Assembly: GCA_009602735.1 (NCBI GenBank)
Contig: WELA01002258.1
Location: 713,546-752,061 of the forward strand
Origin: Mesotaenium endlicherianum
Taxonomy: Eukaryota
Direction: 5' to 3'
DNA length: 38,516 bases
Positions 14,901 through 37,168 of the stretch are shown piece after piece. Position 1 is the stretch's first letter, and each line of letters begins with the position of its first letter. A model generated the notes under the pieces. The model searched no databases. It worked only from the letters and a program-made list of their open reading frames with translations, and had not been told where the DNA came from. The translations under genes and the position numbers were made by a program.

Positions 14901-17900
14901 TCCCGTCCGTCACCTTCTTGTGGGCTGTTGCGCGCACCACCGCTGCCGCTGGAGTGGTTGGTACGAGTTGCTCCTAATGTGCATGGACTGCCTCATCTGC
15001 TGGAGAGGTCGCAGGGAAGGAGGGGTTCTTGGCTAAGGATGGGAGAGGGAGTGGAAGCGCCTGCGGACCTCTATGGCGTTGATGTAGGGCGCGCCAAAGA
15101 GGCCGCGGTTGAAGGCGATGGTGAGGTTGGGCGTGGTGACAGGCAAGTGCACCGCCTTTGTGGTCGCAAAAGCCGGGTATGCGCTGTTGTAATTTATCAG
15201 CACCTGCCTCGTCATCGCCATCAGCATTCATCAGAGAGCCGGCTGAGCTCGGGAGAGGAGCAGCAACAGCAGCAGCATCAGAACTTAGGGGCTTAAAAAC
15301 AGGGAGTGAGGGAGGGCGGGGAGAAATCTCCAGGCAGGCAGGCAGGCAGGAAAGAAGCATAGTGGAGAAGGGCGGACTAGCAGCAGGTGGGAGGGCGGCC
15401 AGGGGACAGGAGGGGAGGGAGCTCACAGCGGTGTCCTGGAACTGGACCGTGAAGGCGCGATAATAGACGTTGCTGTACTCCAGCTCCGCAAACAGCAGCC
15501 GAACCTGCAAGCCGGCAGCCAGCAGCCAGGGTGTCATGTCCTGCCCTCTTCCTTGCTCTCGCTCTCACTCTTTTTGTCTAGTAGCGATTGACAACGTCGG
15601 GAAACATGTCTGGGTGGACCCCCACCCAAGCAGTGGCAAAATGCAGCACCAGCACCAGCATGAGGGGACGGGAGCACGCACCAGGTACAGGCCGGGCCTG
15701 GGTACGGGGATCCGGTAGTAGTTGAGCGTCTCCCCCGAGAACTCGCGGTACGACGCCGCCACCTGCAGCGCCTGGTTGTTGTCCTGCTCTCTCGCCAACA
15801 AGGCAAACTTGGCCAGGCTGGCAGGCACAGCCACACCCCCCGAGAAGTATCGATCCGCCACATACGGGAACCCAGCGGCCGAGACCATGGCCTCTCCACC
15901 GCAGTTGATCCGCAGAGTGCCTGCAAGGGTAGACAGGTAGTGCAATGCATCGGGTTGGCACTCGAAAAGAAAACTTTCCCTCAACTTACATATAATGAAA
16001 GATATCAGGCGCTTAGAGGACCAGGTGCAGCAAGGGGTTGGCACCGCCACCTCCTCGCTCACTCACAAAGCATGGCCCATGCCTTGCCGACGTGTGATTG
16101 AAGTAAGGACAGGACTAAGCATCTCCTCCCTCACATGCAAAGGGAAAAACTAGGATTGCTACTCCCCTGGGCTAGCACGGGGGGAGGGGGGCAGGTCTGA
16201 GGCTTGACCTTTTCCTTGCCCTTGAACTCAACCTTGGTCTGCATGCAAGTCACTCCCGCCCAGCACAGGAGCTGCCCCCCCACGCACATGTGGAGCCCGG
16301 GGGGCTAGAGGCTGGAGGATAGGGGCTAGGGGCTAGGGGCTAGGGGCTAGAGGCTAGGGGCTAGAGGCTCTCTCCCTCTCTCCCTCCCTCTAACCTGCTC
16401 TTGCTCGGGCTTCCTTTGATCTTACCGTCAGGAAAGGGATCAAAGACTTGGGGCAGCGGGCTGTGGCGGAACACTTCCAGCGCGCTCAGCAGGGGCTCCT
16501 GCACGGGGCTGGTGGGAACGTTGATGACGGTGATGTTGATAGTTCTGCTGGTCGCGGCGGGCACGGGCTCCACGTTGAAGTCCAAGAACATGGCCTTGCT
16601 GGGGCCTGCCAGCCGCACCACGTCCAGGCCCGCATACACCAGCTGCACCCCCAGCCCAGGAGGAGCATGAGCGCGCGCACGCATTCACACCCACACACAC
16701 ACAGGAGCACCCTCCCTGTCCTCTGACGGACAGCAGAGCAGCAGCGGAGGGGGCTCCTAATGCCAAGCTGCATACAAGCATATACTCCCCCCTCAGCCCG
16801 GAAGCACAGACGCGCAGGCGGCATGTTCCATGAAGGAGCAACCGGCCCCACCCGCTACCAGAACGCATGATGGGCGCTGCCGCCCGTTTAGTACACGGGC
16901 AGTGAGTGATTTATTAGTCGGACTGACCTCGTCATTGACGTAGACGTTCATGACGCGCTGGCCGGCGGTGAGGCCCTGGACCTCCGCAAAGTGCAGGCGC
17001 GCCGTGTGGTAGGAGGCGCCTAGCACGGGCACCACGATGTAAAGCCCCACACCCGTCAGGTTCTGCGCCGCGATGGTGGTGGCCGTCTGGAGCACGCGCA
17101 GCGGCAGGAAGTCGGGCGAGCTGCCCGTGCCCGCCACCTGGACGGCGGGGCCCACGCGCGTGCTGCTGGTGCGGTTGTTGACGTACATGAGCGGCACGTC
17201 GGGCTCCCACGTGCGCCCCTCCGAGTCCAGAAAGGGCGCGGGGTCGCCGCCCATGTCCAGGCGCGTGATGGTGCGCATCATCATGGGCGTGTTCACATTG
17301 TTGCGGTACAGCCCTGGGTAGTGGCGCGCCACCTGTCAAGTCGGCAGCACAGCAGAGGCGCAGATGGTGACTTGCATGACATTTAGGCTAGCAGAGGTCA
17401 GAGCAGAGCAGAGCAAATGACTCGCCAGAGGTTGGGGTCTGGCTGCGTTGCTCCCATGCCTGCCTGCGTGGCAGCTCCTGCCAGTAGCATGGCTGCGTTT
17501 GATTTAATCGCCGCATCATCGTCATCATCATCATCATCATCTTGATCAACGTCCGCAGCTGCAGCAGCAACGCTCAAAGTGCATGCATGCAGGTGCCGGC
17601 CCACGCTATGCAGAGAGCAGAGCACACGCCAACGGAATAATGGAGCGTGTAAACAAGCGCACTCACCTCAATGGCGGAAATGTGCATGGCTGCTGTGATG
17701 GCGGTGAGGGACACCACGACCGCGCTGCCGTACACGGGCACCGAGAACTCCAGAAAATATGGCACCGCCGGGTTTGCCACAGTGTACGCCCTGTACGCCT
17801 GCAGCAGCAGCCTCAGGAGCAGTGGCCATTGCTTCAGCACTCGGCCGCAGGAGGTGGAGGAGCAGGAGTCGCTGCAGCTGACTAGATGCAACACAGCGCG

Positions 17901-19048
17901 CCCGGTGGCTACATTTTCACTGTTATCTAAAAAATTGCAGCTTGCTCTCCTGCTTCCTGCTGCCCTTGCCACTTCTTCTTTTTTTGGGGGGGGGGNNNNN
18001 NNNNNNNNNNNNNNNNNNNNNNNNNNNNNNNNNNNNNNNNNNNNNNNNNNNNNNNNNNNNNNNNNNNNNNNNNNNNNNNNNNNNNNNNNNNNNNNNNNNN
18101 NNNNNNNNNNNNNNNNNNNNNNNNNNNNNNNNNNNNNNNNNNNNNNNNNNNNNNNNNNNNNNNNNNNNNNNNNNNNNNCCCCCCCCCCCCAGCACCATCA
18201 ACAACACGTGCATGCATCCGGCCGCGCGCTCTTGATGAGGCACGCAGCCACGATGACAGGAGACTCCTGCTCATGCCGTGCACGCAGTGCTCGCAAGCAT
18301 GCATCCTTCTTGGATGTACTTCCAGGAGGGTGCTCATGGTGGCAAGTTCAAGAGCCCTCAAGTGCCACCGTGACCCCCATGCCACTCTCCCAACGATGAC
18401 ACCTGGCTCCGAGGACCTCCAGCTTCTCCTTTCTGCAGTCTAGGTGTGGCTGGACCACGCTGGACTACACCTGAGCAGATTGCATCAGCGGCAGAAACTT
18501 TGTCTGGCACGCTACGCTGCCCGAGTCTGTGAATGGGATGACACAGCTGGCAGCAGCAAGGCCCCATCCTTTCCTTTTCCCACGCCCTGCTGCCTTTGAA
18601 GCATGCCTTTCCATCGCCGGCCACTCCTCCCCGTCATGCGATGCCTCTACGGCCATTGCAACGCAAAGAGTGAGGGGTGCATGCAGCCCCACCCACTCAC
18701 AGCAGCTGGCGCTCTCCGGGGCTAACTCCCTCTCAGAGCAGGCTCCACGCGTCGCAGCTGGTCCGGCAATTCAACCCTCACAGGGTACCATCCCACGGTC
18801 AGGGGGAGATGGGCGTACCCAGAAGTAGCCAGGGGCAGCCACAGAGATGTTGTAGGAGCCCACGTAGTCCGTGGGGGCCCACTCGCGGGTGGTGGCATAC
18901 AGCAGGTTGTCCTGCAGCAGCAGCTGGGCTCCCGACGCCGTGCTGTTGGCTGGCAGGCCGCCGACATAGCTGCTGTCGGCCGCCCACGTGCGGTTAAAGT
19001 GGTCGACGAAGGCGGGACCGCCGCAGTTGATGCGGACCACTTCGCCAT
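4122..19048 (-). CDS. Multi-exon malectin-like receptor-like kinase (CrRLK1L-related RLK/Pelle): 5 tandem malectin-like pairs, TM helix, Ser/Thr kinase; 5' exon not located
   Basis: Manually spliced GT-AG exons: 19048-18819, 17798-17667, 17332-16928, 16642-16426, 15920-15682, 15504-15427, 15203-15069, 14887-14486, 13896-13689, 13441-13212, 12947-12870, 12643-12512, 12336-11905, 11708-11504, 11346-11102, 9628-9500, 9347-8931, 8706-8505, 8352-8117, 8017-7940, 7811-7680, 7457-7346, 7177-6891, 6524-6326, 6176-6042, 5905-5688, (gap)5614-5500, 5348-5188, 5058-4913, 4708-4615, 4493-4122(stop). Recurrent malectin motifs (R/H)INCGG, RLHFAE, GxRVxDIxIN, LDVV..VGP, xSAIE. Confidence 0.88.
6042..6176 (-). 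CDS. Transmembrane exon of the RLK
   Basis: [35 protein letters not shown]: hydrophobic helix followed by an RRR stop-transfer; flanked by AG/GT. Confidence 0.9.
   Translation of the reverse strand, partial: RRPRGSRPERLPAQLSERVCWRQCCCWRPLCGAAGATISRALWT
6326..8352 (-). CDS. Malectin-like pair 5 exons
   Basis: [75 protein letters not shown]. Confidence 0.85.
8505..11346 (-). CDS. Malectin-like pair 4 exons (interrupted by duplicated segment and gaps)
   Basis: VVRINCGG (11346-11102); VAGNFSF..ISAIE (9628-9500); ERYNIGG..VRLHFAE (9347-8931); [14 protein letters not shown] (8706-8505). Middle 78-bp exon not seen; N junctions at 9830 and 10885. Confidence 0.8.
9831..10884. repeat. Apparently identical copy of 8413-9466 (offset 1418), bounded by single Ns; probable assembly artefact
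   Basis: Identical ORF translations in both copies, introns also identical by eye; N at 9830 and 10885 next to poly-G runs. Confidence 0.85.
11008..11044. repeat. (CAG)n microsatellite in an RLK intron
   Basis: Direct inspection. Confidence 0.85.
11504..13441 (-). CDS. Malectin-like pair 3 exons
   Basis: [57 protein letters not shown]. Confidence 0.85.
13689..15920 (-). CDS. Malectin-like pair 2 exons
   Basis: [66 protein letters not shown]. Confidence 0.85.
16301..16368. repeat. Intronic (CTAGGGG)n heptamer array
   Basis: GGCTAGGGGCTAGGGGCTAGGGGCTAGAGGCTAGGGGCTAGAGG. Confidence 0.85.
16426..19048 (-). CDS. Malectin-like pair 1 exons
   Basis: [60 protein letters not shown]. The short middle exon is probably in N-gap 17996-18178. 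Confidence 0.8.
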
Positions 19049-21269
19049 CTGGACGTCACCTCCAATGCAAAATGCACGAACTGAGTGAAATGAGCGAACA
19101 GAGTTCTCGGCAGCATAATATCATTCTGGCAGCTGCTTTCAACCCCTGCCCAGTCAACGCTGCTCGACCAATCTCCAGAAATGCATATAAGTCTCCCTTC
19201 TACCTTTCCTTGCTTCCCCGTGATGACAAGCTTGACGACTGCGTGCGTCGGCAAACGCTTCCTGAAAAGCAGGCAGGCTGCTGCTCGTCGCTGCAAGCTG
19301 CTGTGGCGTGTGAGGACCCAGCACTCAATTGACATGCAGCGGAAGACAAGGAGGGGGAGGGGAGCATCTGTGCATGGGTTGACAGTGCACGCCACACGCA
19401 GCTTCCATTGCTGCCATAACCCGCCATACACAGCCTTGCAGTGTATTNATACACAGCCTTGCAGTGTATTTGAAACTCCTCATCAACTTCATCAATATAC
19501 AGAGTTGCATCCAATCAGGCATTACCAAGCCTGATGAAAATGTCAGACTGATTCTAACCTATAGCACAGCCGCATAGCGACTATCTGCCCCTGCTCCCAT
19601 ACCAATACATAAGTTCACTACACGTTTCTTGTTCGACTTGTCGGGTACAAGTCCCTCCTGCGCTCCGCTAAGAACCGAAGCCACATGTTCTCCAGTCAAC
19701 TCATTTCATCATTCAACTTGTTCAGTTTCTGTCGTGGCCCCTCTACTTGATGAAAGTATGTCGTCTATGCCCTTACCCTCTTTGACTCTACTCGCGTTTA
19801 TATCAGAACGCATTCTATAAGTATAACTACTCCACAAGCCAGCATAGCAGCTAGCGTAGACACACGTGCTCGTTTGAAATTCGTACTCATGTTCGGGTTA
19901 TTCAAAATGCGCACGCTCAGTCACATAGATGGCAGGTACAGAAGGGTGGAGTCGCTGAAGGCACTTCAAGTAAAGAGCCAGTTCTGCTTCAACTTCAAAC
20001 TCCCCTGCAGTTATGCAGCCAGTCGGGTACCGTAATACAGGCTTGCATATCTTGGGGAGGCAAACGTGCTTAAGAAGGAAAGCTTGCGAGAAGCTGAAAC
20101 TAAATTCATTCCTGAGGCAATTCTCCTTGTTTCGCTATAAGAAAGTGCTTTTTTATTTCCCGTAGCCTGTGCTCGACTGTTCAATGCGAACTACGAGAGC
20201 CTTGATATCACTCACATGCATTCTCAGCACCCACGCGTTTACCTGAACTCTCGCCATTAACGGCTACAAGCAGGACGATGAAAATCCAGTATAAGCATGC
20301 GAAGCGTCCGCGCTTCATAGGCCTCATGTTGGCAGATTACTTCATAGAATTTTCTTGTCAAGGCATCAATAGTAGAGGGGGCACGACTCTACGAGGCAAG
20401 GAGTTGAAACATAAGCTGACGAATGGCAATTTTCTGAATTTCACAATCGAGGATTGGAGCAGACTAGACCTGATGTCAATCACTAATTGCAGGCGCGTGA
20501 AGGCCCGAGCTCTTGACGACGTAGCCGACTTCGGAACTTGTACACGTGAGGCGACAACAGAGAGAAGTGGGAGTAACCAGGCCTGACAGGGACAGGTAAT
20601 TGGGTCGGACCCTTGAAATAGTCTCGAAAACGCCAAAGTTTGCAATTCGCTTGGACTCCCGGAGCGGCCACCAACCTCCGGAACAAACTTTTCTCGATTC
20701 GACCGGGAGACATTTTAACCGCAAATGTATCCGAGAGGCATCGTACCAAGATGGACGAGAAAATGCCAGAATGTGATGAAGCCCTGCCTGGCGTAATCAT
20801 GCAACTATGAGAGCACACTGGACAGAAGTACTCGAGCATAAGCGTGTATGCAACAAACGACACTCATCGACACGATTTGTACGCCTCTGCAAATCTGTAC
20901 CTTGAGATCACTTGAAAAGCTGACAATTTCGAGACTAAGCACGCGAGGTCACGGAATTTGAGAAGCAAATGACAAGACGACAAGGTCCAGAAATATATAA
21001 TCGAGGTGACGACAAACCAGGCGCTTGACTAACAGTTCGTCTTGACGTAGGGCATTGTCACATACAAGAATCAAGGCGGCAACCTCAGTCATTCATGAGT
21101 GCGACCGCGACGTGGACAAGGACCGCTGACAATTTTCACCGTAACCGCTTCTTGCCGTTAGACGCAACGTATCTAGTTCGAAACACTACTGCTCGGATTG
21201 GGCAAGAGCCTAAATAGAGTTATTTTCCTTTGAAGTGTCTTACATTATTTTGTTTGTCTTAGGGACTCA

Positions 21270-22509
21270 TGTGGCGACTATTATCCGTTTGACGGTGTCG
21301 CACGCGCAGCGCAAGCTACGGCCACCTAGTGCTGAAAGTCAACGTTGCCTCACCCACCACTTGACTGATTACATCGCAGTTACCGGTTATGGCGGCGTCA
21401 AGACCACTGGCAAGGGGTCAATGGCAAGGGGTCAATGCCAGTGTGCCCCACACCCAAGGATGGGGGAGGTTTTGACAAGACAGCCGCGAGGCTAGGAGCT
21501 GGGGATCAGCAATGAGCCGCCCAGCAAGTACCAGGTCAGGTACTGTGTGACTGGCAGATTAAGCCAGGTCATGGCTGCAATGCCAAGATAGGTTACGGCC
21601 GCCCGGTTGGGAAAACTTGAGCAAGCGGCATTTGCTTGCACGCCGCTCAGGAATTCTTAGCCATGAGCCAATTAGGCGTGACTGCCGGCTGAGAAGCTAA
21701 GCAGCCACGCGCGACAGTCACAAGGTGTGCATGCATGCTGAGTGACTACGAGTTTGAGTTGAGCAAGGCTGGGCAGAGGCGACATGCAGCTAAGTTGTGT
21801 GACTAAGCACGGCATTCTCGAAAGATGACGCTGTGTGGTGCCTGCGAAAGGCACGAATCTTGCCTGAGACATGTCATTCACTCTCACGCACCTTTGCCAA
21901 GAAGCAGAAGGAAAGAGAAGAAGGGCGCGAAAAAGAAGAAGGAGTTCCCAAGGCCATTGGAGGGCCAAAGCCCCACGCTTCTGACGACGCCGAAGATTCT
22001 TCTGTGTATCATAGATAAGTTAGGATTGTAGGAGTTCCCAAGAGGGAATCTCACGGTTGAAGAAGGAGAACTGCAGAATAGAATTTGCTAGGAGATTAGC
22101 ACAGAGTCAGCCGAACGCCACAAGTGTGTGTGTGAAGCAGCCTTAAAATGGTGAGTTGAGTGTTGATTTCCAAGTTCTCAGAAGTCGCATTCGCATCTCG
22201 AAGAGAGAGAGTAGTATTGACAGATAAAGCTCTCAGTGAAGAACTGAGTGAGCCCAGCCTGGCAGTGAAGAGCTGTTAAGGCGCGGTGTTAAGTGAAGAG
22301 CTTGACCCAGGGCAGCATAGACGTGGTTTCAGAGTTTTGTAAGCTGACTTGTGGAAGTTAAGCGAAAGCCCGAAGGGCAATTTTCTCAGAATCTGACGTT
22401 GCATGTCAAGCTGTTTAGAGTGTGATTTCTGCAAACTACAATTTGCTCACCTATGAACCCAAGAACCTTAAGGCATAAAGCCTATGTGGAAGTAAGAGAC
22501 TTTCGTCCT
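21270..22509 (+). repeat. Terminal repeat A (1240 bp), 5' copy
   Basis: Nearly identical to 31267-32492. The 14-bp length difference is explained by a tandem duplication GGCAAGGGGTCAAT at ~21409-21436. Confidence 0.93.
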
Positions 22510-22845
22510 ACTTCTGAGAATATCAGTTCCGTGGTTCAGGTGAATAGAAATTCCCAAGCAAATTGGGGATTGAGGCCTGTGAGGGCTGCCGGTGCTCAAC
22601 CTGGAAGGGGACCTGGAGAAATTCAACTGTACATGCAGTTGAGGAGTGGAAGACTCTACTACCCTGTGGAGCCTGCGAAAGTATCTGATTCAAGCCAAAG
22701 TCCACGAGAAAGTGAGACATCTGAGCACACGGATAACCTGTAGAGTGAGCAACCGTCGAGAGACGAGTCTCGCCATACTGCCACAAACAGTGAGAATCCG
22801 TATAACGCGCGAGCTTTTGTACCCAATTCGGGCAGAGAGCACGAC

Positions 22846-24328
22846 GTGTGGGATAAAGATAGTGAGTCTTGGTCACCACTCGAAATGACTGGTGATGATA
22901 AGGATGAAAATCCTAAGTTCAAGCTGTCTACAAAGTGTTTTAGTGGACGAACCAGTGGAAATAGTCTCACTTTCGAAGAGTTTGATGAGATCTATTGGGC
23001 TGACTTCTTTGAGAAAATCCGAAAGGATTCTTCTTACACTCAGTCTATCGCTTTTATAAGCTTGGTTCAGTACTTGGACAAGGATGCCTTGTTGCTGTAT
23101 TGCCAATTTCGGAAGGATGAGAACCTTACTCAGAAATGGGCGTTTGACGAGCAAAAGAAGGCGAGAGATTTGAAAATCCAGAATGAGGCTGCGAAAGCCC
23201 GCCTGTCCGCTTTGTCATCAGGAAGAGCGATACCTGCTGCACCTGTTGAGAGCGTAAACTTAGCTGCACCAACACAAGAATTAACAGATGCCATGAAGCA
23301 ACTCACCAAGGGTCAGCAGCGAGCGGCTACTCGAGATGATGATGCTGGATCTGTCATAGAATTGCGTAAAGTGTGTGCAGAATTGTCTGAAAAGATTGCT
23401 AATGCTCAGGAACGAGAAACACGCAGAGCTGCACCTTTTACAGGGCAGCATGGTGATAGTGCCACCACGGAAGCAGGCCATGCGCAAGCGTTGCCTAGTT
23501 GCCGTAGGGATATGGAGGCTGGAGATGACCAGTTAGACTCTTAGCACTGTCTGCGTCGTTTCTTTAAGTTGCTTGAAGCAAAATCCCCAGAGAATCGCAG
23601 TCTTAAAGTGCACCGTTATGTTCATTTTGTCCGTCAGAAGAACGACACAGTGATGGAGGTCAAATCCAGATTGGTAGACCTTGCCAAGAAGGCAAGAATC
23701 TATGAGCCTAGGATTGTGGCTGACAAATTCTTATTATGTCTGGGTAAAGACACAGATCGGGAGGTCAGGCCGCACCTATCTGCAAAACGCGGAATCGACT
23801 TGAACATCGACGAGGTTGCTGAAATAGCACGCAATGTCGAGGAAGGTAAAGTCTGGTACAAGGAGGCGTCCAGGACGCTTATGGCTCCTGAGAGAAGGGA
23901 GGAATCCTTTCAGCCTAAGGCCAATAGCTCTAATTTCCAGTTTAAAAAGAAGAGCGGGTCTTTCGATAAAATTTGCTAAGCACGCCAACACTGCTGAGAC
24001 AGCAGAGGGCTGTTGGAATTGCGGGAAATCGGGACATCAGAAGAGAGATTGTCCGTACCCGGATGCTAAGCAATTGTTTGCTAGCAAGGCGCAAGTATGC
24101 GCACATTGCAGTAAAAAGGGACACTCAGAAGATGAGTGTTGGTCCAAGAACCCAAATCTGAAACCACCATGGGCTAATGCTGCCACGAAAGAGGCGGATA
24201 AGGGTAAGAAAAGGGAGAAAGATAACTCTGGTAACCGGAAGGGTAACCAGAAGTATGATGCTATGAGTGCAGAGATTGCAGAGTTGAAAGCTAAATTTGC
24301 AAGACTAAATGTGCCTAATGTCTTATGA
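22846..24328 (+). pseudogene. gag: gag region with two CCHC zinc knuckles (stop at 23542, frameshift near 23970)
   Basis: RQKNDTVMEV..RL.DLA capsid-like motif; CWNCGKSGHQKRDC and CAHCSKKGHSEDEC. Confidence 0.85.
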
Positions 24329-24767
24329 TGCAGATGTGGCCGAAAAGACCATCTGCAAAGGCGAGAAGCTGACGCCTGAGAAGGCCGTGGCTGCAACGGC
24401 TGCGGAGCGCGCGGATCATGACCGTCTGGTTCCAAGGAATGCTGGGAAGCTTCCTTAGACCTTTCGGATCACTCTCGATGAGAACGAGATTGCGCAGCTA
24501 CAACAAGCCAAGCCTGGGCCACGCAAGACATTTAGTTTTTCGCTGGAAAAGCTAAAGGCTCTGGTGGAACACCGGATTCAGCACATTCCTTGTCTTTCAC
24601 TCGCTGATCTGCGTCTTACATATCCTTTCACGATTGAGGAAGCCGGACAGCAGCTGGACCTAGCTAAGGAAGGCGCGAACAGCGCTTCGCTGCCAACTAA
24701 TTTCAGCACTGTGAGAGAGCAGAACAAGGATAGAGTTATGACGTTTAACAACTAGGCCGCTCCCAAT

Positions 24768-25110
24768 ATCCTATTGGACACAGGCGCACAGCCAGTAATC
24801 TTGGGAAAGCGAGCTGTGAAAGCTCTGGGATTGACGGCAAGGGACCTGAAAGAAAGTTCTTTCCAGTTGAGGACTGCATCTGGGCAAATTTCAAAGTCTT
24901 GTGGAATCACCCGCAAGCCTGTGGAAATCACAGTAAACTTGGGGAAACCTGAGGAAGCGTCACTGTTATAGAGTGTACGGTGACAGAGTCAGAAAACTAT
25001 GATGTTCTATTGGGGACAGAAGCTCTGATTCCCCTGGGTATGGTCATTGACCTGCGGAAGCAGAGGGTGACTTACCAGTCGACAGATCGGCAGCCGACAG
25101 GAGAAATTCC
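24768..25110 (+). pseudogene. Retroviral-like aspartic protease (disrupted near 24970)
   Basis: ILLDTGAQPVILG active-site motif; downstream YDVLLGTEAL..LGMVIDL..RVT. Confidence 0.88.
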
Positions 25111-25420
25111 TGTAAAAATGGTTTGCTCGGGAGAAGCAAACTACGGACTGCTAGACTGCTATGTGAATGACCAGTATCCAGACCATTATGACCTCATCAT
25201 GCAACGCAAAGAGAAGATCTACACCAGCATCAACATGCCGACTCCCTTGGTTTGGCAACCTTGGATTATGGAGCAACTAGAAGCTGTGAGTAACAAGGAC
25301 CGTGGCCCGCAAGAGCTGCTGCCTGTTCCTTATCTAGTTAAGAGTGTTGCCAATTTGATGCCTGGAGTAGACCCATTGCCGCAAGGCACTGTGAGGATGG
25401 AAGATCCTTTTCGCAGGAGA

Positions 25421-26390
25421 GGAGTAGTAATGCTGGAATTGTTCGCCGGACTTTGTACTGGAACCATCGCACTGATTCAGCGAGGTATCCGGGTATCCAA
25501 AGTGCCGTATGTGGACAATGATGAGAATGTTTTTACAGCTCTTGAGGAGGTCATGAGTCAGATGCGGCAAATGTACCATTTCAAGGCATTGGTGCCCACT
25601 AGTGTGGTGCGTCTTGCTGAAGGAAACATTCTCGATGTGAAGTCTGAGGACCTGGATGGTTACAGGATTGACTGGATTTTTGCGAGAATCCCTTGTCAAC
25701 CTTTCTCGCAAGCTGGGAACAGGAGGGGATTCAATGACCCGCGAGCACAACATTGGGGAAGGATGGTGAAGATCATCAGTATGCTGCGGGAACGCCAGCA
25801 TCTCTACCCACAAGTGCTTGTGATTGAGAATGTACATCCAGGGATGGATTACAACCAGATGAAGCCAGGAGATCCATGGCTGGTCTTCGACTCCACCCTG
25901 GGTCATCATGTATTGATCAACGACGCCAGGCACGGAGGACTCTCACACCGGGCCCGACTATTCTGGACCAACGGCATGTCCATTGAAATCCTGAGGGAGA
26001 TGGAGGAGATTACGCGGCGCACGCCAACGACAGTATCTGTGGGAGAAGCACTGATGGTGGAAACCAAGCCAGTGATCAGGAGGGATTCCTACCCACAGTA
26101 CGTCGTCAACGAGCCAGGCCGGCCGAGGGTGGTGCTGCCCACCTTCACAGCATACTCAGGATCACGCGCTTTCGTGAATGGAGTGGAGGACCAGGATTGG
26201 TCAAAGATGTGCACGATAGAGAAGCTCAGTGGAGAGAGCCGACAGCTGAAGAGAAGGGAAGGTGCCTGGGGGTACTCAACTCCATTGCACAAGAAATTTT
26301 TGCAATGGTGGGACAGGACAACGCTGGGAAGATATTCGGCAATATGATTGGGCATCACTCCATGACAGGGTTGGTAGAGACGATTATGAC
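25421..26390 (+). pseudogene. C5 cytosine DNA methyltransferase domain (DNMT3-like) within the retrotransposon polyprotein; one frameshift near 26183
   Basis: Motif I LELFAGLCTG (25433-25462); motif IV IPCQPFSQAG (catalytic Cys 25694-25696); motif VI VIENV (25820-25834); motif VIII HRARLFWTN (25946-25972; compare DNMT3 HRARYFWGN). After the frameshift, motif IX-like WREPTAEEKGRCLG (26230-26271) and motif X-like KIFGN (26329-26343). Confidence 0.9.
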
Positions 26391-28176
26391 TTGGCAACAG
26401 ATGATGTTCTCTGACAAGCCTATGCCCAGGCCGAGGCCGGTAACAATTGGAGTCCATGTGGTGCCAACCTCTGATCAGAGAGCTATCAGGGAAGCGTATC
26501 AGCAACAAAAAGAATATGCTGTTGAAAGAGACTTCGCTGAGGCTGACCAAGATGAAACACTCAGAGAAACCAGAGTGGTGGATCTGACCAGGTATCAAGA
26601 CCTATTGACGCGAATTGACAATCGGATGGCGACTCTACGCGACCCTCTGGAAATAGAGCAATGGAGGCTGCAAGAAGAAGTAACCATGGAAGACCAAGCA
26701 ACTGGTGCAGCAAACCCTTTGGTGAGCGCTGCAGTAAGCAAATCACAGGAGGTTCCAGCATCTGCAGAACGCTCCAGCCAAGTATTTAGGAGGATGTCGG
26801 AATGGGAAGAATATACCAGTTCTGAGTTACGAAACATGGCCCCAGACCAGGTCTTCGGGAGCCCATCCCCAGACGCGGTAACATCAAGATATGAAGAACG
26901 CCAGTGCAATATTGGCGAATGGGCCGAAGAACGCAGTCAGAATTCAGGAAATTCTGGAGGGTCTGGAAAGACCATTTGCCTGGAGGTGATTTTTGAAGAA
27001 CACAAGAAGGAGACAGCCAAGAGATTGCCCGCCACACTTGCTCTGATGAGCCCAGGGCCAGAGGCCAAAGGGCAACCACAAGACACAGTTGGCAACACAG
27101 CTGAGTCGATCACCAGGCAAATCATGGCGCAGTTGCTGGAAGCAGACGCCCCTCGACTCAAGGAAGAGAAAGTGGCGAAAGCAGCTCTCGCTCTACAGTC
27201 AGCCATCATCAACATGGCGAGGCTCAACACAGGAGGGGATGAAGAATTACCGCCTCCTAGAACAGAGAAGCCGGAGGAGGAAGAGGATGCAAAGATGCAA
27301 GGCCTCTCGGAGTTGGAGTCACCATCACTCAACAATGAAGGGGACATTAGGGAAGAAATTCCACGTTTTCCCACGCCAGAGTTGGATCTGCTTGACTTAC
27401 AAGAGCTGAGGACAGACGACTGGGTGGCTGACCACCTGATGGGGCCAAGCCCGGCAGACCTTTATGAAGAATTAAGGTCGCCAACATCCAGTTTTCCTTT
27501 TGCCAGTCTTCCAGTGGTAGAATCCAAGTCAACCGCACAACCGCCGCAACGGCAGGAGGTGACTGCCTGCACTGCTAATGTGGAGACAGCACAAGCAAAG
27601 CCCGAAAGTCGCGCAAGCAGACCAAGGAAGGTGGCCCGTGAGGGTAACGCATCTTTTAGGAGGATACTAAAGCAATATTTCAAGCATAAGGGGAAGGCTC
27701 AGAGAGAGGGCGTTTCGCGAAGAACCACAGCTCCACCTCCTCCGCCTCTGCGGGATATTCTGCAGAGAGAGGGAGAGGACGGTTTGGTTTGCAGGGTAAT
27801 GGCATTGGGCATTAGTGTGCCGCCAGGCATGAACACGCCCTCGTTGCAACTATCAGATCTTAGGATACAGAGGTCGGAGGAGCCTGCTCCTATGATACCT
27901 GCAATCCCAGGATCGGAACTGATGGATCTGAGAAACACCATCAGCCGCTTGACCGCAGCAGATGATGCCTTTCTCGCACAACTAGCGGCACCTCAAAGGC
28001 CGCAAACATTGGCGCAGGCATGGATGGTCACACCACCCGCAAGGGAGGAGTATGGCACGACCGTCGTCCGCATGGCTATTATTGAGCGAGAATGGGGCTG
28101 GGCGATCAGCCCTAGGACAGATCCAGCAGGTTTTCCAATGGCAACCCAACCTCAGTGCATGGGGCTCCCACAGTAG
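26391..28176 (+). CDS. Long stop-free polyprotein segment of unknown function (acidic/Pro-rich) between DNMT and RT
   Basis: Part of the 659-aa ORF 26197-28176; no domain I recognise. Confidence 0.55.
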
Positions 28177-28900
28177 TAGTCGCTAAAAAGGACGAGGCCG
28201 GCAATTACTCTGCCACTCGTATGTGTGGAGATTACAGGCGACTGAATCTCTACACGGAGCCAGATAGCTATGTGATGCCTACACCGGAAAGGATCTTTGC
28301 AATTGCCACCACCGGAAAGGTGTTTAGCATTATCGATATGCGCCAAGGCTTCAACCAGATCCCTGTGAAAACAGAAGGTCGAGGTAAGACAGCTTTCTGG
28401 GCTCAAAGGGAACTTTGGCAATGGACAGTAATGCCATTTGGACTGAAAAATGCCCCAGCCATATTTCAGAGGACTATGGATAAAGTGCTGGAGGGGCTGG
28501 ATTTTGCTAAGCCATACATTGACGATGTGGTAGTATTCAGCAAGTCCATAGAGGAGCACCTCGAGCACTTGGAACAAGTGTTCCAGCGCTTGGAGAAATT
28601 CCAGATGAAGCTGCATCCCGGGAAGTGCAGATTCTTTGAGGCACACGTGCCTTACCTAGGACATGAGATTGGGAACAATGCTTTGTCCCCTCATGCTGTG
28701 AAGACTGAGGCTATTTAAAAGATACCTGCACCTGCGAATGTGTCGAAGCTAAAAGCTCTGTTAGGGCTAAGCGGATACTATCGTAGGTTTGTGAAGGATT
28801 ATAGCAGAATTGCTAAACCCGTGACGAAACTCCTGAAAAAGGATGTACCTTTTGTGAGGACAGAAGCTCAGGAGAAAGCCATGAACGAGCTTAAGGAGCG
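28155..28900 (+). pseudogene. pol: Reverse transcriptase (gypsy-type), premature TAA at 28716
   Basis: VVVAKKD..RMCGDYRRLN, IDMRQGFNQI, MPFGLKNAPAIFQR, YIDD (28515-28526), KCRF..VPYLGH, LGLSGYYRRFV. Confidence 0.95.
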
Positions 28901-29310
28901 GCTGGTAACAGCCCTAGTCTTGCGAACGCCTGACTACTCCAAGCCGTTCAATCTGCACACTGACTGGAGTCGTGTGGGAATTGGCGCAGTACTCACTCAG
29001 GCCACAAGCCCTACAGAGGAGTATGTCATTGCCTATGCCTCACGCTCTAACAATCGAGCGGAGAGCAACTACTCGTCCTATGAAGGAGAGCTGCTGGCAG
29101 TGGTTTGGACGGTCACACACTTCAGAGAGTATCTGTGGGGAAGACCCTTCACACTGATCACGGATCACTCACCATTACTATGGCTGATGAAGAATGGAGA
29201 CCTCACTAGTAAGTTGGCTCGCTGGGCTCTTAAGCTGCAAGAGTACCAAATGACGGTGGTGCACAGAGCAGGAGTGCTCAACAACGAAGCCGATGGACCC
29301 AGCAGGAACC
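28901..29310 (+). pseudogene. RNase H (Ty3/gypsy type)
   Basis: FNLHTDWSRVGIGAVL, IAYASR, EGELLAVVW, FTLITDHSPL, RWALKLQEY, NNEADGPSR. Confidence 0.93.
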
Positions 29311-29612
29311 CAGATCCATCTTCAGACAACAGAACAGGAGCTCAAGAGGATGAAGACCCGAGCAGCCCAGCAGAGTTGGTGGCTTGCCTAGCCAAAATGG
29401 CTGGAATAGTAGCATCAGGTGAAGTTGAGCCTCTACCCCTATTAAGTCCAGAGATCTGGAAAGATCAAGCTACTATGCACTGGCTGAAGACGGGAACTCA
29501 CTTGGAAGGACTATCAGTGAAGGAGAAGGACCAGGTAAACCATTGAGCTAAAAGGTTTTGCTCAAAATGCAACAACCTCTTCAAAATTGAAGAAACTGGT
29601 CAGGAGAAGTTA

Positions 29613-30700
29613 GTGCCAGAACCCATCAAGAGACGAGCCCTTGTGCAGGAAATGCACGAGAACACTGGACACTATGGTGTCAAGAAGACATATAGTCTTT
29701 TGGAGCTGTCTTACTGGTGGAGGGGCATGAAGCAGCAGTATGAAGATGTGATCAAGGCCTGCCAAAGCTGTGATCGCGTCAAGGGTGGTTTTACACAGCA
29801 ACATCCACACTTGCAACCTTTGCCAATCATGGGCCTAGGCTACCGTTGGAGCTGCGATCTCGCAGGTGAGCTACCGCTGTCTAAGCGAGGTAACAAGTAT
29901 ATCATGGTCATGATTGAGCATTTCTCTAAGTGGATAGAGGTTGTCCCTCTGACTGCTAAGGAGAGTCTAGGGACCGCGGAAACGTTCCTCAATGGTGTGA
30001 TTGTGCGTCATTATGCTCCAGCAGAAGTGCTGACAGACCAAGGGTCTGAGTTCCAAGGGTCTTTTCAGAAACTCTTGGATAGATGCTTCATCGATCATCG
30101 CACTACGTCTAGAGATCATCCACAAGCAGATGGTCTAGCAGAAAGGATGGTGCAAACCATTAAGTCTGCTTTGTGCATGTTTTGCCTTGAGCATGACAAG
30201 CGTGACTGGGATCTAGCCCTGCCATGGCTGGTTATGGGTTACAGATTAGCAAGCAGGCTGCCTTGGCAAATTACTCACCATATCAGATACTGTTTGGCAG
30301 AAGTCCAGTAGTGCCCAGCAGCATCAAGCAGGAGATTGAACAGGTGAAAGACCTGGACAGCCTTGATGAACTGTTAAAAGTGATGGTGCGCCGTAAGGCG
30401 TTATTTGAGCGCATGATACCGGCTGCACTAGACAATCTGAAAATTGCACAGAAAAGAGATATGCAACATTACGCCAGGACGCGAGACGGGAGCTACCGCC
30501 TGCAGATGACGCGGATTCAAGAAGGAGACTTTGTCTACCGCAAGCGCTAGACCAAGACCACCATCGACACCAGTTCAGGTGCAGTGATCTTGCGCGTGAA
30601 ACATGCGTTTGACAATGGTGTGTTAAAACTGGAAGGTTCTGATGGTAAAACCATGAGAGACCACGTGCAGAATTGCTCGCTATGCCATTTGCCGAATATT
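29613..30700 (+). pseudogene. DDE integrase with HHCC zinc finger and C-terminal extension (frameshift ~30245, stop 30548)
   Basis: H..GHYG..C(QS)C; WSCDLAG; VLTDQG; HPQADGLAERMVQTIK; SPYQILFGR; GDFVY. Confidence 0.93.
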
Positions 30701-30748
30701 GATCCCACAGTTAGGGTTGTGCCCGAGGAATTGGTGCCGGCCACGCCT

Positions 30749-30877
30749 TGTGCCAGCTGCAAAGTGCTGGACGATCAGGAAGCAATGGTAACTTGCGATA
30801 AGTGTGGTGCCTGTTGGCACACTTTCTGCATTGGCGAGGAAGAAATTATGGCAGGACGATGGGAATGTCCTGATTGC
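30749..30877 (+). CDS. PHD finger (C4HC3) at the integrase C-terminus
   Basis: CASCKVLDDQEAMVTCDKCGACWHTFCIGEEEIMAGRWECPDC; all 8 zinc ligands and the conserved Trp are present; polyprotein stop at 30911-30913. Confidence 0.92.
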
Positions 30878-30948
30878 CATCCTAAAACCCCTAGCCGCAG
30901 GGCTGGAAAATAATAGCTTTCAGCAGGAAAGGCAGGGACGCCTCAGCT

Positions 30949-30960
30949 GAAAGGGAGGGG
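30949..30960 (+). promoter_or_regulatory. Polypurine tract
   Basis: GAAAGGGAGGGG immediately before TGTT at 30961. Confidence 0.85.
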
Positions 30961-31264
30961 TGTTAGAGGAATTAAGGCAAGGCAAGTATTTTTAAATTTT
31001 CTGCTGAAAGTCTTAGGATAAGCAGATGGTGAGAGCCGGGTGATAGAGAACGTCACCTTGAGTGTTGGTCAAGGCTATATGGTGCAAGTTCAGGAACCCA
31101 GGGATAGGTTAACCCTGGTAAGGCTTGTCACCGACACACGTGCAAAGGTCGATCGACCATGTCTGCCACACGTGAGGAGGGCCACCAACACATCAACCAG
31201 GCCGAAGGCACACGTGCTGGAAGGCTACGCACGTGCCGAGAAACCGACACTGTTAGGCACAACA
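30961..31264 (+). repeat. Repeat B (304 bp, TGTT...AACA, LTR-like), first copy
   Basis: Follows the PPT; inverted termini; nearly identical to 32493-32796. Confidence 0.92.
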
Positions 31265-31266
31265 GC

Positions 31267-32492
31267 TGTCGCGACTATTATCCGTTTGACGGTGTTGCAC
31301 GCGCAGCGCAAGCTACGGCCACCTAGTGCTGAAAGTCAACGTTGACTCACCGACCACTTGACTGATTACATCGCAGTTAGCGGTTATGGCGGCGTCAAGA
31401 CCACTGGCAAGGGGTCAATGTCAGTGTGCCCCACACCCAGGGATGGGGGAGATTTTGACAAGACAACCGCGAGGCTAGGAGCTGGGGATCAGCAATGAGC
31501 CGCCCAGCAAGTACCAGGTCAGGTACTGTGTGACTGGCAGATTAAGCCAGGTCATGGCTGCAATGCCAAGATAGGTTACGGCCGCCCGGTTGGGAAAACT
31601 TGAGCAAGTGGCATTTGCTTGCACGCCGCTCAGGAATTCTTAGCCATGAGCCAATTAGGCGTGACTGCCAGCTGAGAAGCTAAGCAGCCACGCGCGACAG
31701 TCACAAGGTGTGCATGCATGCTGAGTGACTACGAGTTTGAGTTGAGCATGGCTAGGCAGAGGCGACATGCAGCTAAGTTGTGTGACTAAGCACGGCATTC
31801 TCGAAAGATGACGCTGTGTGGTGCCTGCGAAAGGCACGAATCTTGCCTGAGACATGTCATTCACTCTCACGCACCTTTGCCAAGAAGCAGAAGGAAAGAG
31901 AAGAAGGGCGCGAAAAAGAAGAAGGAGTTCCCAAGGCCATTGGAGGGCCAAAGCCCCACGCTTCTGACGACGCCGAAGATTCTTCTGTGTATCATAGATA
32001 AGTTAGGATTGTAGGAGTTCCCAAGAGGGAATCTCACGGTTGAAGAAGGAGAACTGCAGAATAGAATTTGCTAGGAGATTAGCACAGAGTCAGCCGAACG
32101 CCACAAGTGTGTGTGTGAAGCAGCCTTAAAATGGTGAGTTGAGTGTTGATTTCCAAGTTCTCAGAAGTCGCATTCGCATCTCGAAGAGAGAGAGTAGTAT
32201 TGACAGATAAAGCTCTCAGTGAAGAACTGAGTGAGCCCAGCCTGGCAGTGAAGAGCTGTTAAGGCGCGGTGTTATGTGAAGAGCTTGATTCAGGCCAGCA
32301 TAGACGTGGTTTCAGAGTTTTGTAAGCTGACTTGTGGAAGTTAAGCGAAAGCCCGAAGGGCAATTTTCTCTGAATCTGACGTTGCATGTCAAGCTGTTTA
32401 GAGTGTGATTTCTGCTAACTACGATTTGCTCACCTGTGAATCCAAGAACCTTAAGGCATAAAGCCTATGTGGAAGTAAGAGACTTCCATCCT
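31267..32492 (+). repeat. Repeat A' (1226 bp), second copy of 21270-22509
   Basis: Direct alignment by eye from TGTCGCGACTATTATCCG to GAGACTTCCATCCT. Confidence 0.93.
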
Positions 32493-32796
32493 TGTAAGAG
32501 GAATCAAGGCAAGGCAAGTATTTTCAAATTTTCTGCTAAAAGTCTTAGGATAAGCAGATGGTGAGAGCCGGGTGATAGAGAACGTCACCCTGAGTGTTGG
32601 TCAAGGCTGTATGGTGCAAGTTCAGGAACCCAGGGATGGGTTAACCCTGGTAAGGCTTGTCACCGACACACGTGCAAAGGTCGATCGACCATGTCTGCCA
32701 CACGTGAGGAGGGCCACCGACACATCAACCAGGCCGAAGGCACACGTGCTGGAAGGCTACGCACGTGCCGAGGGACCGACACTGTTAGGCACAACA
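32493..32796 (+). repeat. Repeat B' (304 bp), right terminus of the element
   Basis: TGTAAGAGGAATC...TAGGCACAACA followed by CTCA. Confidence 0.92.
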
Positions 32797-33319
32797 CTCA
32801 TTGTTGCACGTTTAACAATTGAACAATGAGAGAGTTGTTAGCGTGCTTTTCAAATAGCCATGATGAATTTCTTGCATGTAACCCTGAAAATGTGCATTTC
32901 ACGAAACAGTGTGCTTCAGTCCCCCAGCATAGTTCTTTGTGGTGGCGTGCGTCAAATCCCCGCCCCCGTTGTCCACGTGAGTTCGACCCCACATTCTCTG
33001 CAGGCAGCAGGCCTTTATTGAGGTGTGGGTGGAGGACGCTGCCACCTGTCCCATTGAGGAGGTCTCTGTGGCGCTCTTCTAGGGAGGGGCACCTGTCGCA
33101 GTGGAGAAGAAGGAGGCTGACGCATTGTATGACCTAAAGAAGTTGGAGAGGGAGCTGGCGGGCGTGGAGCATTGCCAACCTGGCGGGGCTGCAGGAGCGC
33201 CTCTCGGTCGTCAACCCGTTCAACCTCCTTATACATGAGTTAACTGATTGCATGACTGATGCACGTTCACTCGCATTTGACTTATGAGTATTGGAACGCT
33301 AGTTGTGAAGTCTTTTGCT

Positions 33320-35215
33320 GATTATTAGGTAATCAAAAAACCCCATAAGATTACTTGATGACGTAAAATCTTTTAACAATTGTTAATCGTCTATCGATAA
33401 GTCAATTCATTTCAGTGGTATTGGAGTTGGTGTCTTAGATTCCTTTGTATGGTAAGGACGCGGTCTCAAAATAGCAACTCTTGAGATATGGAGGGTCAAG
33501 ATAACGAGAAGAGGGAAATTCTAGGTGAAAATGAAGATGATAAATGTTGTACTTATGCTGAAGTTCTTGCGCCTAAAGAGGCTAGAGAAGCCGAGGAAAC
33601 GGCGACGGCCTTTGTTGTAGTAGCAGCTTAGCAAGTTGAAAAATATCTCATTAGAACAGAGGCCGAATGTTTGGCTAAAGCAGAGGACGAGGCAGCTGCT
33701 GAAAAGCGGCGTCTGGGTGACAACAGCACGGTTGAAGAGATGATGGCAGAAAGGGCCACTCTCCAAAACGAGCTTCCTGATGGAGCTACTACTGTACCTT
33801 TCACCCTGGAGCTACTACTGTACCTTTCACCCAGATAAATAGACAGTTAAGCGAGACAGGACTTGCTAATGCAGCAGCAAGAGGAAATGCCAAATCTGTT
33901 GCTAAGCAATTGAATGCTGCTGCTGCTGCTATTGGTGGATTGCAACCTCAGAATGTTGATTTGGGTGCATTGTTCGTTCAAATGCAGTCTCAGATGACAA
34001 TGATGTATCAATCCCAACTGGAGGATTAGAGGATTATGATAGCATTGTTGCGTAAGACAGACCAACCGGGGTCTCACACTACTGGTGGTGGCAGGGGGCC
34101 TAGCAAGCTCAAGCCAAAGTCACCTCAAGACTATGACCCCGAGGGAAACAAAAAGTATTCCTTGACAAAGTTTCTCGGTGATGTTGAGCAGTGGCTGGAG
34201 AATTATCCAAACATGCAAGATTTTGGAATATTTAGACACACCGGTGCTCTACTGAAAGACAGCACAGCAGACTGGTGGCTACTCTACAAAGGAGAACGGA
34301 AGGCTAAACAACTCGATGACCCTACATGGGAAGAGTTCCGTTGAGCAATTGCACAAGAAATTTGATGTCATCAATCAGATGGAAAAAGCTATCTCTGCAA
34401 TGATCTCCTTGTCACTGGAGCAAATTACTTCAGTTGGTGAGTATGCACAGAAGTTCCAAGAAAATATGATGAAGAAACCTGCATTGTCACAGCTATCTAG
34501 AATTGCATACTTCCAGTTTGGCTTGAAGTCTGAGATCTCGAGTCATTTTGCTAAGAAGAAGTATGATAAGCTGGCTCACTTGATCCAAAATATTGATGCT
34601 TGGGATCAACGGGGATTCAACTATAACTTGGCACCCACCAGTGTCGCTCCTTGTGTCCTGTATGGATGGCAAATGAAGGAAAAAGAAAGGCTTCGAGGAA
34701 GATGCAAGTTGCTGAATACAATGGAGTTCGTCTAAAGCTGGAACCTCAAGGAAGATATAATGTTCTGTTTGTTGCTCAAAGAGTTCCCTCCTCAACCTGA
34801 GGAAAGAGTAAGCGCTCCGGAGCACCCCACCGCCGCGATAATTGTTGCTCAGTATGATGGTGTTTTTAACATGCCCCCAAGACTGCCCCCTAAGAGGGAG
34901 GTAGATCATAAGATTGATCTGGTACCCGGAGGCAGCCTCCTTGGCAGCGTACGCATGGCTTGTTCTATGTGGAGATTGAGGAGTCAAAAACACGAATTCT
35001 AAAAGTTCAGGAGAAGAGTCACATATCTCCTAGTATGTCCCCTTATGGCGCACCCATTCTACTTGTTCAGAAAAAGGATGGCAGTATGCGTATGTGTATG
35101 GACTACAAACCTAAAATTAGAATCACGTTAAAAAAATTGATGTGCTTTACCTAGGATTGAGGATCTGCTTGATACAGTGTCTAGAGCTAAAGTGTTAAAT
35201 AAAATTGACCTTGAT
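33320..35215 (+). mobile_element. Degenerate, truncated Ty3/gypsy element: LTR 3' end, decayed Met PBS, gag, start of RT
   Basis: ..ATTCATTTCA (33414) + TGGTATTGGAG; gag-like FLGDVEQW..TADWW..PTWEEF; LPPKREVDHKIDLVPG, SPYGAPILLVQKKDGSMRMCMDY, LPRIEDLLDTVSRAKVLNKIDL. Confidence 0.85.
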
Positions 35216-37094: not shown

Positions 37095-37095
37095 A

Positions 37096-37107
37096 TGGTA
37101 TCAGAGC
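37096..37107 (+). promoter_or_regulatory. tRNA-iMet primer binding site
   Basis: TGGTATCAGAGC one base after the LTR-terminal CA. Confidence 0.92.
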
Positions 37108-37168
37108 AGTTATCACAGTCTTCTTTGTATGGTAAGGACAAGGTCTCAAACTAGCAACTCCCGGAGAC

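What the first reader, a model, noticed from the sequence alone, without database searches (positions are those of the whole stretch)
25421..26390. Retrotransposon encodes its own DNMT3-like cytosine methyltransferase between protease and RT
Seen: C5-MTase motifs I, IV (PC), VI (ENV) and VIII (HRARLFW), plus IX/X-like motifs after one frameshift. They are in frame with the protease C-terminal half and lie upstream of RT-RH-IN. Established: DNMT-bearing retrotransposons have been reported in dinoflagellates and charophytes (de Mendoza et al. 2018), so the concept is not new, but such elements are rare. Inference: as part of the polyprotein, the MTase could be packaged in the particle and methylate nascent cDNA or the insertion site. 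This copy is probably inactive (frameshift ~26183; ARIPC instead of GGxPC).
Basis: partly seen in the sequence, partly recalled or inferred. Interest (0 to 1): 0.88.

Follow-up and report, generated by a model that had tools for sequence, protein, structure and literature searches.

The report
Methyltransferase-carrying Gypsy retrotransposon, permuted ends
This is a dead copy of a jumping gene, in what is likely an alga or non-seed plant, that encodes its own DNMT3-like DNA methyltransferase; the design was described in the alga Klebsormidium in 2018, and the enzyme would likely methylate the element's own new DNA copies.

Summary
Positions 25421-26410 encode a DNMT3-type cytosine methyltransferase (Pfam E 6e-14; profile and fold closest to DNMT3A/B), in frame with the protease of an 11.5-kb Ty3/Gypsy element (21270-32796): Gag-PR-MTase-spacer-RT-RH-IN-PHD. 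It is not a one-off insertion. Other copies carry it, and 92 of the 150 best relatives have it inside retrotransposon ORFs. This copy is dead (six stops, six frame breaks).

It is a new member of KnitGypsy-Dnmt3 (de Mendoza 2018): the same domain order as K. nitens proteins and the same A-coding-B-A-B repeats.

Not found in print in my searches: a second layout (RT-RH-MTase-IN-PHD; Scenedesmus), Tf1-like self-priming complementarity (8 of 8 elements), TG..CA ends with 4-bp target duplications, and a palindromic B|A junction conserved in both layouts (20 of 34 loci). These suggest integration by cutting inside a circularised cDNA. Self-methylation of cDNA is inferred only; the element shows no special CpG loss, and the K. 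nitens enzyme was inactive in yeast. This scan found the family and the permuted ends before on other genomes.

The parts
21266..21269 (.). left 4-bp target-site duplication (CTCA)
21270..22509 (+). repeat A1 (1240 bp); starts TG; holds a TATA-like site and the likely transcript start near 22170
   Evidence: 97% identical to A2; RNA reads peak in bin 21982-22372; start site inferred
22175..22185 (+). 11 nt complementary to the sequence right after A1 (likely self-primer)
   Evidence: 3 of 300 shuffles reach 11 nt
22510..22520 (+). primer-binding site, self-priming type; not a tRNA-type PBS by eye
22630..24325 (+). gag with CCHC zinc knuckle; start approximate; stop at 23542, frame breaks near 23969 and 24322
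   Evidence: PF00098 E 2e-6
24756..25120 (+). aspartyl protease; frame break near 24967; stops upstream at 24456 and 24753
   Evidence: PF13975 E 4e-6
25421..26412 (+). DNMT3-like C5 cytosine methyltransferase domain, motifs in unpermuted order; frame break near 26180
26413..28153 (+). open spacer rich in Glu/Ala/Pro, no family match; ends at a deletion that removed the RT N-terminus
   Evidence: loose end at 28153
28158..28715 (+). reverse transcriptase (N-terminus missing); stop at 28716
   Evidence: PF00078 E 2e-30
28719..29543 (+). RT connection and RNase H; stop at 29544
   Evidence: PF17917 E 2e-37
29547..30550 (+). integrase (H2C2 and rve core); frame break near 30246, stop at 30548
   Evidence: PF17921 E 2e-16, PF00665 E 1e-11
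30728..30892 (+). C-terminal PHD finger, closest to WSTF, MLL3, KDM5-PHD1, ATXR5 and BAZ2B PHDs
   Evidence: PF00628 E 1e-5
30950..30960 (+). polypurine tract directly before B1
30961..31264 (+). repeat B1 (304 bp), ends CA
   Evidence: 96.7% identical to B2
31258..31273 (+). near-palindromic B1|A2 junction: the element's own right end and left end, two bases apart
31267..32492 (+). repeat A2
32493..32796 (+). repeat B2, joined directly to the end of A2; ends CA
32797..32800 (.). right 4-bp target-site duplication (CTCA)

Best explanation
This is a decayed copy of a high-copy Ty3/Gypsy retrotransposon of the KnitGypsy-Dnmt3 kind whose Gag-protease frame runs into a DNMT3-like methyltransferase, which in active copies is likely packaged in the particle and would methylate the new cDNA, probably at CG. 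Shown: domain order, DNMT3 affinity, presence in other copies and relatives, conservation of the catalytic Cys/Glu/Arg, A-internal-B-A-B repeats with TG..CA ends and a 4-bp duplication (about 0.93 for membership). Inferred: (1) the RNA primes itself as Tf1 does, its 5' end pairing with the site after A1; (2) reverse transcription from that site and the polypurine tract gives BA-internal-BA; (3) the ends join, and the DDE integrase opens the palindromic B|A junction inside one repeat, which yields A-internal-B-A-B (about 0.55); (4) the PHD finger tethers integration to unmethylated H3K4, that is gene-poor chromatin; (5) the MTase marks the cDNA before or at insertion so that it matches host DNA (about 0.5).
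For: Pfam and profile/fold matches. 92 of 150 best relatives hold the domain in an ORF with protease, RT/RH or integrase matches. K. nitens KFL_013780020 is NC-PR-MTase and the adjacent tag KFL_013780010 is RT-RH-IN; 30% and 42% identical to the window. The window RT-RH falls in one clade (FastTree support 1.0) with K. nitens, Closterium, Coleochaete and Calypogeia proteins. 535 contigs of run X1 lie on the MTase stretch; an X7 contig bridges the site of the frame break without it, and other copies differ at two letters in the motif IV codons. Median dN/dS 0.39 for MTase (73 pairs) against 0.38 for RT (46 pairs) at dS 0.15-0.4 among 20 loci. Ends: 4-bp duplication exact in 4 and with one mismatch in 3 of 7 complete elements; junction motif in 20 of 34 loci against 2 of 34 control stretches and 2.8% of shuffles; self-complementary primer site in 8 of 8. 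PMC5890265 showed de novo CG methylation by the Symbiodinium retrotransposon Dnmt3 domains.
Against: The K. nitens Gypsy MTase gave no methylation in yeast (PMC5890265; called inconclusive there). CpG observed/expected is 0.62 in the element, 0.67 in the host gene region and 0.49 in the neighbouring repeats, so there is no mark of self-methylation. Most relatives have EC, not PC, at the catalytic loop. No RNA read fell on the MTase bins in two runs (33 and 120 reads laid on the element, mostly on the repeats; 6% and 12% of the runs read). A plain two-LTR circle has two junctions and should also give A-B-A-internal-B; none was seen (19 loci checked upstream, one loose match outside the element). 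The window MTase has a long branch and its grouping with K. nitens has SH-aLRT 91 only; it was drawn to a prokaryote-type MTase. The loci were found with an MTase motif, so they cannot show how many relatives lack the domain; the eight elements fall into three sequence families.
Confidence: 0.6

Rival explanations
1. The domain belongs to the element but does not act on the cDNA: it binds nucleic acid, methylates the flanks after insertion, or damps the element's own activity to the host's benefit.
For: No activity of the K. nitens domain in yeast and the self-limiting idea in PMC5890265 (discussion read); PC replaced by EC in 70 of 116 relatives; no extra CpG loss.
Against: Cys is kept in 116 of 116 relatives, motif VI Glu in 100% and the motif VIII Arg residues in 98-100%, which points to catalysis. 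The domain stays inside the polyprotein in both layouts.
Confidence: 0.27
2. The MTase reading is right, but A-internal-B-A-B arises without a closed circle: an extra template jump of RT, or read-through into B2, gives a linear DNA whose ends integrase trims as usual.
For: Only one of the two possible openings of a circle is seen. The A2|B2 joint varies by up to two bases between insertions, as a template jump could cause.
Against: The polypurine tract abuts B1 and the primer site abuts A1, so ordinary synthesis ends at B start and A end, which lack TG..CA in the relatives. The junction is conserved across both layouts although the repeats share no other evident similarity, so it seems to be used each cycle.
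Confidence: 0.3
3. The MTase is a one-off captured or nested fragment, and the repeats are a chance pile of LTR pieces.
For: The flanks hold other repeats, and the spacer after the MTase is three times longer than in most relatives.
Against: In frame with the protease, present in other copies, same order in K. nitens and Closterium proteins, same repeat layout with target duplications in unrelated-sequence loci.
Confidence: 0.02

Closest known systems
KnitGypsy-Dnmt3 of Klebsormidium nitens (de Mendoza et al. 2018, PMC5890265; parts 1-5 of 7 read, Fig. 4c seen as legend only, 3 supplementary text files searched)
   Same: Gypsy domains, intronless unpermuted Dnmt3-like domain in the polyprotein, A-coding-B-A-B repeats; K. 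nitens proteins KFL_013780020/010 show the same PR-MTase-RT order and fall in the same RT clade.
   Different: Another host and about 30% MTase identity; 587-codon spacer (the K. nitens gene model ends right after the MTase). The text I read does not mention the PHD finger, self-priming, target duplications or the junction.
SymbioDIRS-Dnmt3 (same paper)
   Same: Dnmt3 domain in Pol, A-coding-B-A-B repeats; shown to methylate CG de novo in yeast.
   Different: Tyrosine recombinase instead of a DDE integrase; dinoflagellate host; independent capture according to the paper.
DAM-LTRs and EpiLTRs (bioRxiv 10.64898/2026.05.21.726589; passages and section 7 read)
   Same: Gypsy elements with a methyltransferase and a chromatin reader; one DAM clade has the domain between RT and integrase, as layout II here.
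   Different: Adenine MTase, or a DNMT4-sister MTase with a chromodomain; the paper calls the streptophyte Gypsy-DNMT3 capture distinct.
Tf1/Sushi and Tcn1 self-priming elements (PMC7175516 and PMC6317226, passages)
   Same: About 11 nt at the likely RNA 5' end complementary to the site after the 5' repeat.
   Different: Ordinary LTRs and chromodomains; no MTase. Kinship of the RTs was not tested.
Gypsy-7a_cRei of Chlamydomonas (PMC9940879, section 13 read)
   Same: Green-algal Gypsy element with a PHD finger in Gag-Pol.
   Different: PHD lies before the integrase, no MTase listed, ordinary LTRs.

Membership tests
KnitGypsy-Dnmt3 / streptophyte Gypsy-DNMT3 | Gypsy domain set and order PR-RT-RH-IN, no tyrosine recombinase | tested here: met
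   (12 ORF pieces scanned; no recombinase family listed)
KnitGypsy-Dnmt3 / streptophyte Gypsy-DNMT3 | intronless, unpermuted Dnmt3-related domain in the polyprotein | tested here: met
KnitGypsy-Dnmt3 / streptophyte Gypsy-DNMT3 | repeats arranged A-coding-B-A-B | tested here: met
KnitGypsy-Dnmt3 / streptophyte Gypsy-DNMT3 | RT and MTase group with the K. nitens proteins | tested here: met
   RT clade support 1.0; MTase within the family, finer placement weak. That KFL_013780010/020 are the paper's element is my inference.
KnitGypsy-Dnmt3 / streptophyte Gypsy-DNMT3 | MTase and RT in one reading frame | tested here: inconclusive
   RT N-terminus deleted in this copy; one ORF in P0021, P0170, P0177, P0200, P0289, P0290 and in L010, L053, L056; conserved stop in another subfamily, 10 of 10
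KnitGypsy-Dnmt3 / streptophyte Gypsy-DNMT3 | purifying selection on the MTase | tested here: inconclusive
   met in relatives (dN/dS 0.39, like RT 0.38, inflated by decay; one pair 0.03); not measured in the window's own family
DNMT3 family | closer to DNMT3 than to DRM, DNMT2 or bacterial MTases; motif VIII HRxRxxW | tested here: met
   no tree with host DNMT3 sequences was built
DNMT3 family | SAM-dependent de novo cytosine methylation | not testable with these tools
   catalytic residues conserved; activity unshown
DIRS/PAT/Ngaro tyrosine-recombinase elements | tyrosine recombinase, no target duplication (recalled) | tested here: not met
   rve integrase and 4-bp duplication
Troyka (PMC12440569, parts 1-3 of 5 read) | CG..CG ends, 3-bp duplication, animal hosts | tested here: not met
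   TG..CA ends and 4-bp duplication
Canonical LTR retrotransposon | one direct repeat at both ends, starting after the PPT and ending before the PBS | tested here: not met
   the PPT-to-PBS unit B+A is split; the insertion ends lie inside it
Chromoviruses | chromodomain at the integrase C-terminus | tested here: not met
   PHD finger instead

The most novel reading that the evidence does not exclude
An old lineage of Gypsy elements across green algae and bryophytes has left the retroviral rule that integrase works on the ends of linear cDNA: it self-primes, joins its cDNA ends and is integrated by a DDE integrase at an internal palindromic junction, much as IS3-type circles are (recalled). It carries a DNMT3 plus an H3K4me0-type PHD finger, a mobile copy of the DNMT3-ADD logic, captured once and later moved from before RT to before integrase. 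Boldest step: methylation by the element's own enzyme protects one of the two junctions and so explains why only A-internal-B-A-B is ever inserted.
Probability: 0.4. Interest if true: 0.75.

Novelty: new member of a known kind. Interest (0 to 1): 0.42.

Why it matters
The finding as posed was published in 2018, so one more dead copy adds little. The family matters more. It gives many diverged, naturally open DNMT3-like domains with which to test the open question of whether retrotransposons methylate their own cDNA. Its conserved junction makes a clear prediction about an integration route not expected for a retroviral-type integrase. Tools that look for paired terminal LTRs would likely miss or mis-bound such elements in algal and bryophyte genomes, and their MTases can inflate DNMT3 gene counts.

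Tried and rejected
Troyka as the name for split-repeat Gypsy elements: recalled wrongly, rejected after reading. No whole genome is held, so copies could not be counted or aligned in the host. Word-index searches for longer MTase relatives found nothing; the exhaustive search did. Viral contigs: 0 loci by protein and 0 by motif. Prokaryotic genomes: 4 motif matches, none with an MTase hit. The search for related loci with alignment A1 had no conserved stretch. No RNA holder listed in the run index. Atlas: only the K. nitens homologue could be searched; it returned generic C5-MTase clusters. No tRNA gene in the window. The minimum-energy fold of 22170-22560 does not show the primer pairing, so self-priming rests on complementarity alone. 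No self-priming match of 11 nt was found in layout II locus L068, whose A end is off the contig. dN/dS on stop-free domains gave only 2 usable MTase pairs. The conserved stop after the MTase, a lead from earlier notes, is subfamily-specific: 10 of 10 in the L003 type, but sense codons in 15 of 22 in the L053 type; undetermined in the window. Literature: searches found only PMC5890265 and one mention in the 2026 preprint for Gypsy-Dnmt3, and nothing on split repeats with a DDE integrase; subscription journals, Repbase and theses were not searched, supplementary figures of PMC5890265 and bioRxiv supplements were not seen.

Full report
Observation. The frame 24953-26347 holds the second half of an aspartyl protease and then a C5 cytosine methyltransferase (PF00145, E 5.6e-14). 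The piece after the break near 26180 matches six relatives on its own. A profile of 24 family sequences scores DNMT3A (E 8e-19) and DNMT3B (3e-16) above DRM-type enzymes (6e-13 to 5e-10) and HaeIII/HhaI (about 1e-9), with motifs in unpermuted order. The model (mean pLDDT 74; its last 55 residues are out of frame and mostly under 50) matches DNMT3A best.

The element. Gag with a zinc knuckle, protease, MTase, a 587-codon spacer, RT, RNase H, integrase and a PHD finger run on the plus strand. The repeats are A1 21270-22509, B1 30961-31264, A2 31267-32492 and B2 32493-32796, about 97% identical in pairs. The insertion starts TG, ends CA and is flanked by CTCA on both sides. The copy is dead: stops at 23542, 24456, 24753, 28716, 29544 and 30548, frame breaks near 23969, 24322, 24967, 26180 and 30246, and a deletion near 28153 that removed the RT N-terminus. 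Neighbouring genes encode malectin domains and a plant receptor-type kinase, which points to a streptophyte; the named relatives are algae and liverworts.

Not a one-off. In run X1, 9027 contigs lie on the element and 535 on the MTase stretch; summed depth is not a copy number, but the family is clearly repeated. An X7 contig bridges the place of the MTase frame break without it, X1 contigs break off there, and other copies differ in the motif IV codons, so these lesions look private to this copy. RNA reads from two runs with the same species label as X1 were few and fell mostly on the repeats, none on the MTase.

Relatives. The exhaustive search gave 460 proteins at E<=0.001. Of the best 150, 14 have the MTase after protease or before RT (layout I, as here), 78 have it after RT/RNase H or before integrase (layout II) and 58 show the MTase alone. 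Layout I includes K. nitens KFL_013780020 and Closterium proteins; layout II includes Scenedesmus sp. PABB004 pol. Of 80 long metagenome loci found with a motif VIII pattern, 50 are layout I, 21 layout II, 8 unassigned and 1 has no MTase hit. In the RT-RH tree both layouts form one clade (support 1.0) with K. nitens, Closterium, Coleochaete and Calypogeia proteins; layout II is a sub-clade (0.95) and a layout I protein, P0258, lies just outside. In the MTase tree layout II is one side of a branch (SH-aLRT 94) within layout I when rooted on distant MTases. One capture followed by a move of the domain is the simplest reading, but the root is weak and no one-clade test was run. The liverwort RTs were not shown to carry an MTase themselves; MTase-bearing loci group with them.

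Known kind. De Mendoza et al. 2018 (PMC5890265) describe KnitGypsy-Dnmt3: a Dnmt3-related domain in the Pol of a Gypsy element whose repeats are arranged as in DIRS. They report Ka/Ks under 0.2 and no activity in yeast, which they call inconclusive, while the Symbiodinium domains methylated CG. All features that I could test are met or inconclusive; none failed. This is a new member of that kind.

The ends. Six metagenome elements repeat the layout. The 4-bp duplication is exact in the window, L019, L023 and L053 and has one mismatch in L032, L055 and L078; ends were set by eye. The polypurine tract abuts B1 and the primer site abuts A1, so ordinary reverse transcription would give BA-internal-BA. 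In the relatives those ends lack TG..CA, while the internal B|A junction is the right end and the left end of the insertion, two bases apart. A 16-letter junction motif, drawn from these loci, is found 3' of the PHD in 20 of 34 loci (14 of 21 layout I, 6 of 13 layout II), against 2 of 34 control stretches and 2.8% of shuffles; the window matches with two mismatches. I infer that the cDNA ends join and integrase opens the junction. Against this, the alternative product A-B-A-internal-B was not seen in 19 loci. In 8 of 8 elements the sequence after A1 is complementary over 10-17 nt to a site inside A (0-3 of 300 shuffles as long), about 25-35 nt below a TATA-like sequence in the window and the L023-type elements, as in Tf1 self-priming. 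These elements come from three sequence families, and some loci appear to be one insertion in two samples.

Function of the MTase. The catalytic Cys is kept in 116 of 116 relatives and dN/dS resembles that of RT. Being fused to Gag-protease, the domain should enter the particle, where cDNA is made; methylation of cDNA is the most likely role but is unshown, and CpG content gives it no support. The PHD has Gly or another non-aromatic residue two before the zinc-binding His in 65 of 65 relatives (Gly in 60) and is closest to KDM5-PHD1, BAZ2B, ATXR5 and related fingers. From recalled knowledge this is the type that reads unmethylated H3K4. One subfamily has a conserved stop about 85-100 codons after the MTase, others do not; the window cannot be judged.

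Earlier notes of this scan report the same family in at least 6 other genomes and the permuted ends in two. They are unchecked AI notes and not independent support; I reuse their word 'permuted'.

Verdict. Real and correctly read, but a known kind: interest 0.42. The unexplained part worth following is how a DDE integrase yields split repeats.

Noticed in passing
window 4100-19150, minus strand: Intron-rich gene or genes with many malectin-like domains and a plant receptor-type kinase; exons repeat, and 8396-9800 is duplicated 1418 bp downstream next to assembly gaps.
   Followed up: partly
window 33228-33510 and 36905-37191: A second pair of diverged direct repeats (77%) with gag-like fragments nearby; likely another, older retroelement right of the insertion.
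   Followed up: no
window 20000-21269: Left flank has CpG observed/expected 1.04, unlike the rest; no Pfam match for its two ORFs.
   Followed up: partly
protein P0143: Holds PCIF1_WW (E 1e-10) and DNA_methylase (E 3e-8) in one ORF; may be a dual adenine plus cytosine methyltransferase element.
   Followed up: no
loci L003, L006, L011, L022, L044, L067, L069: Conserved stop followed by CAA about 85-100 codons after the MTase, in frame with RT; resembles a read-through signal (recalled).
   Followed up: partly
proteins P0006, P0022, P0025, P0227: Extra domains in relatives: Tudor after the PHD (P0006), G-patch between MTase and integrase (P0022, P0025); a more distant Gypsy ORF named thymidylate kinase by its source (P0227).
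   Followed up: no
protein P0165 cluster: 226-member RT-RH-IN-PHD cluster of this clade; one member is named as a cyanobacterial protein, likely eukaryotic DNA in a metagenome bin.
   Followed up: no
L038, 8192-18193: About 7 kb between MTase and the nearest RT, whose sequence looks like another Gypsy lineage; likely a nested insertion.
   Followed up: no
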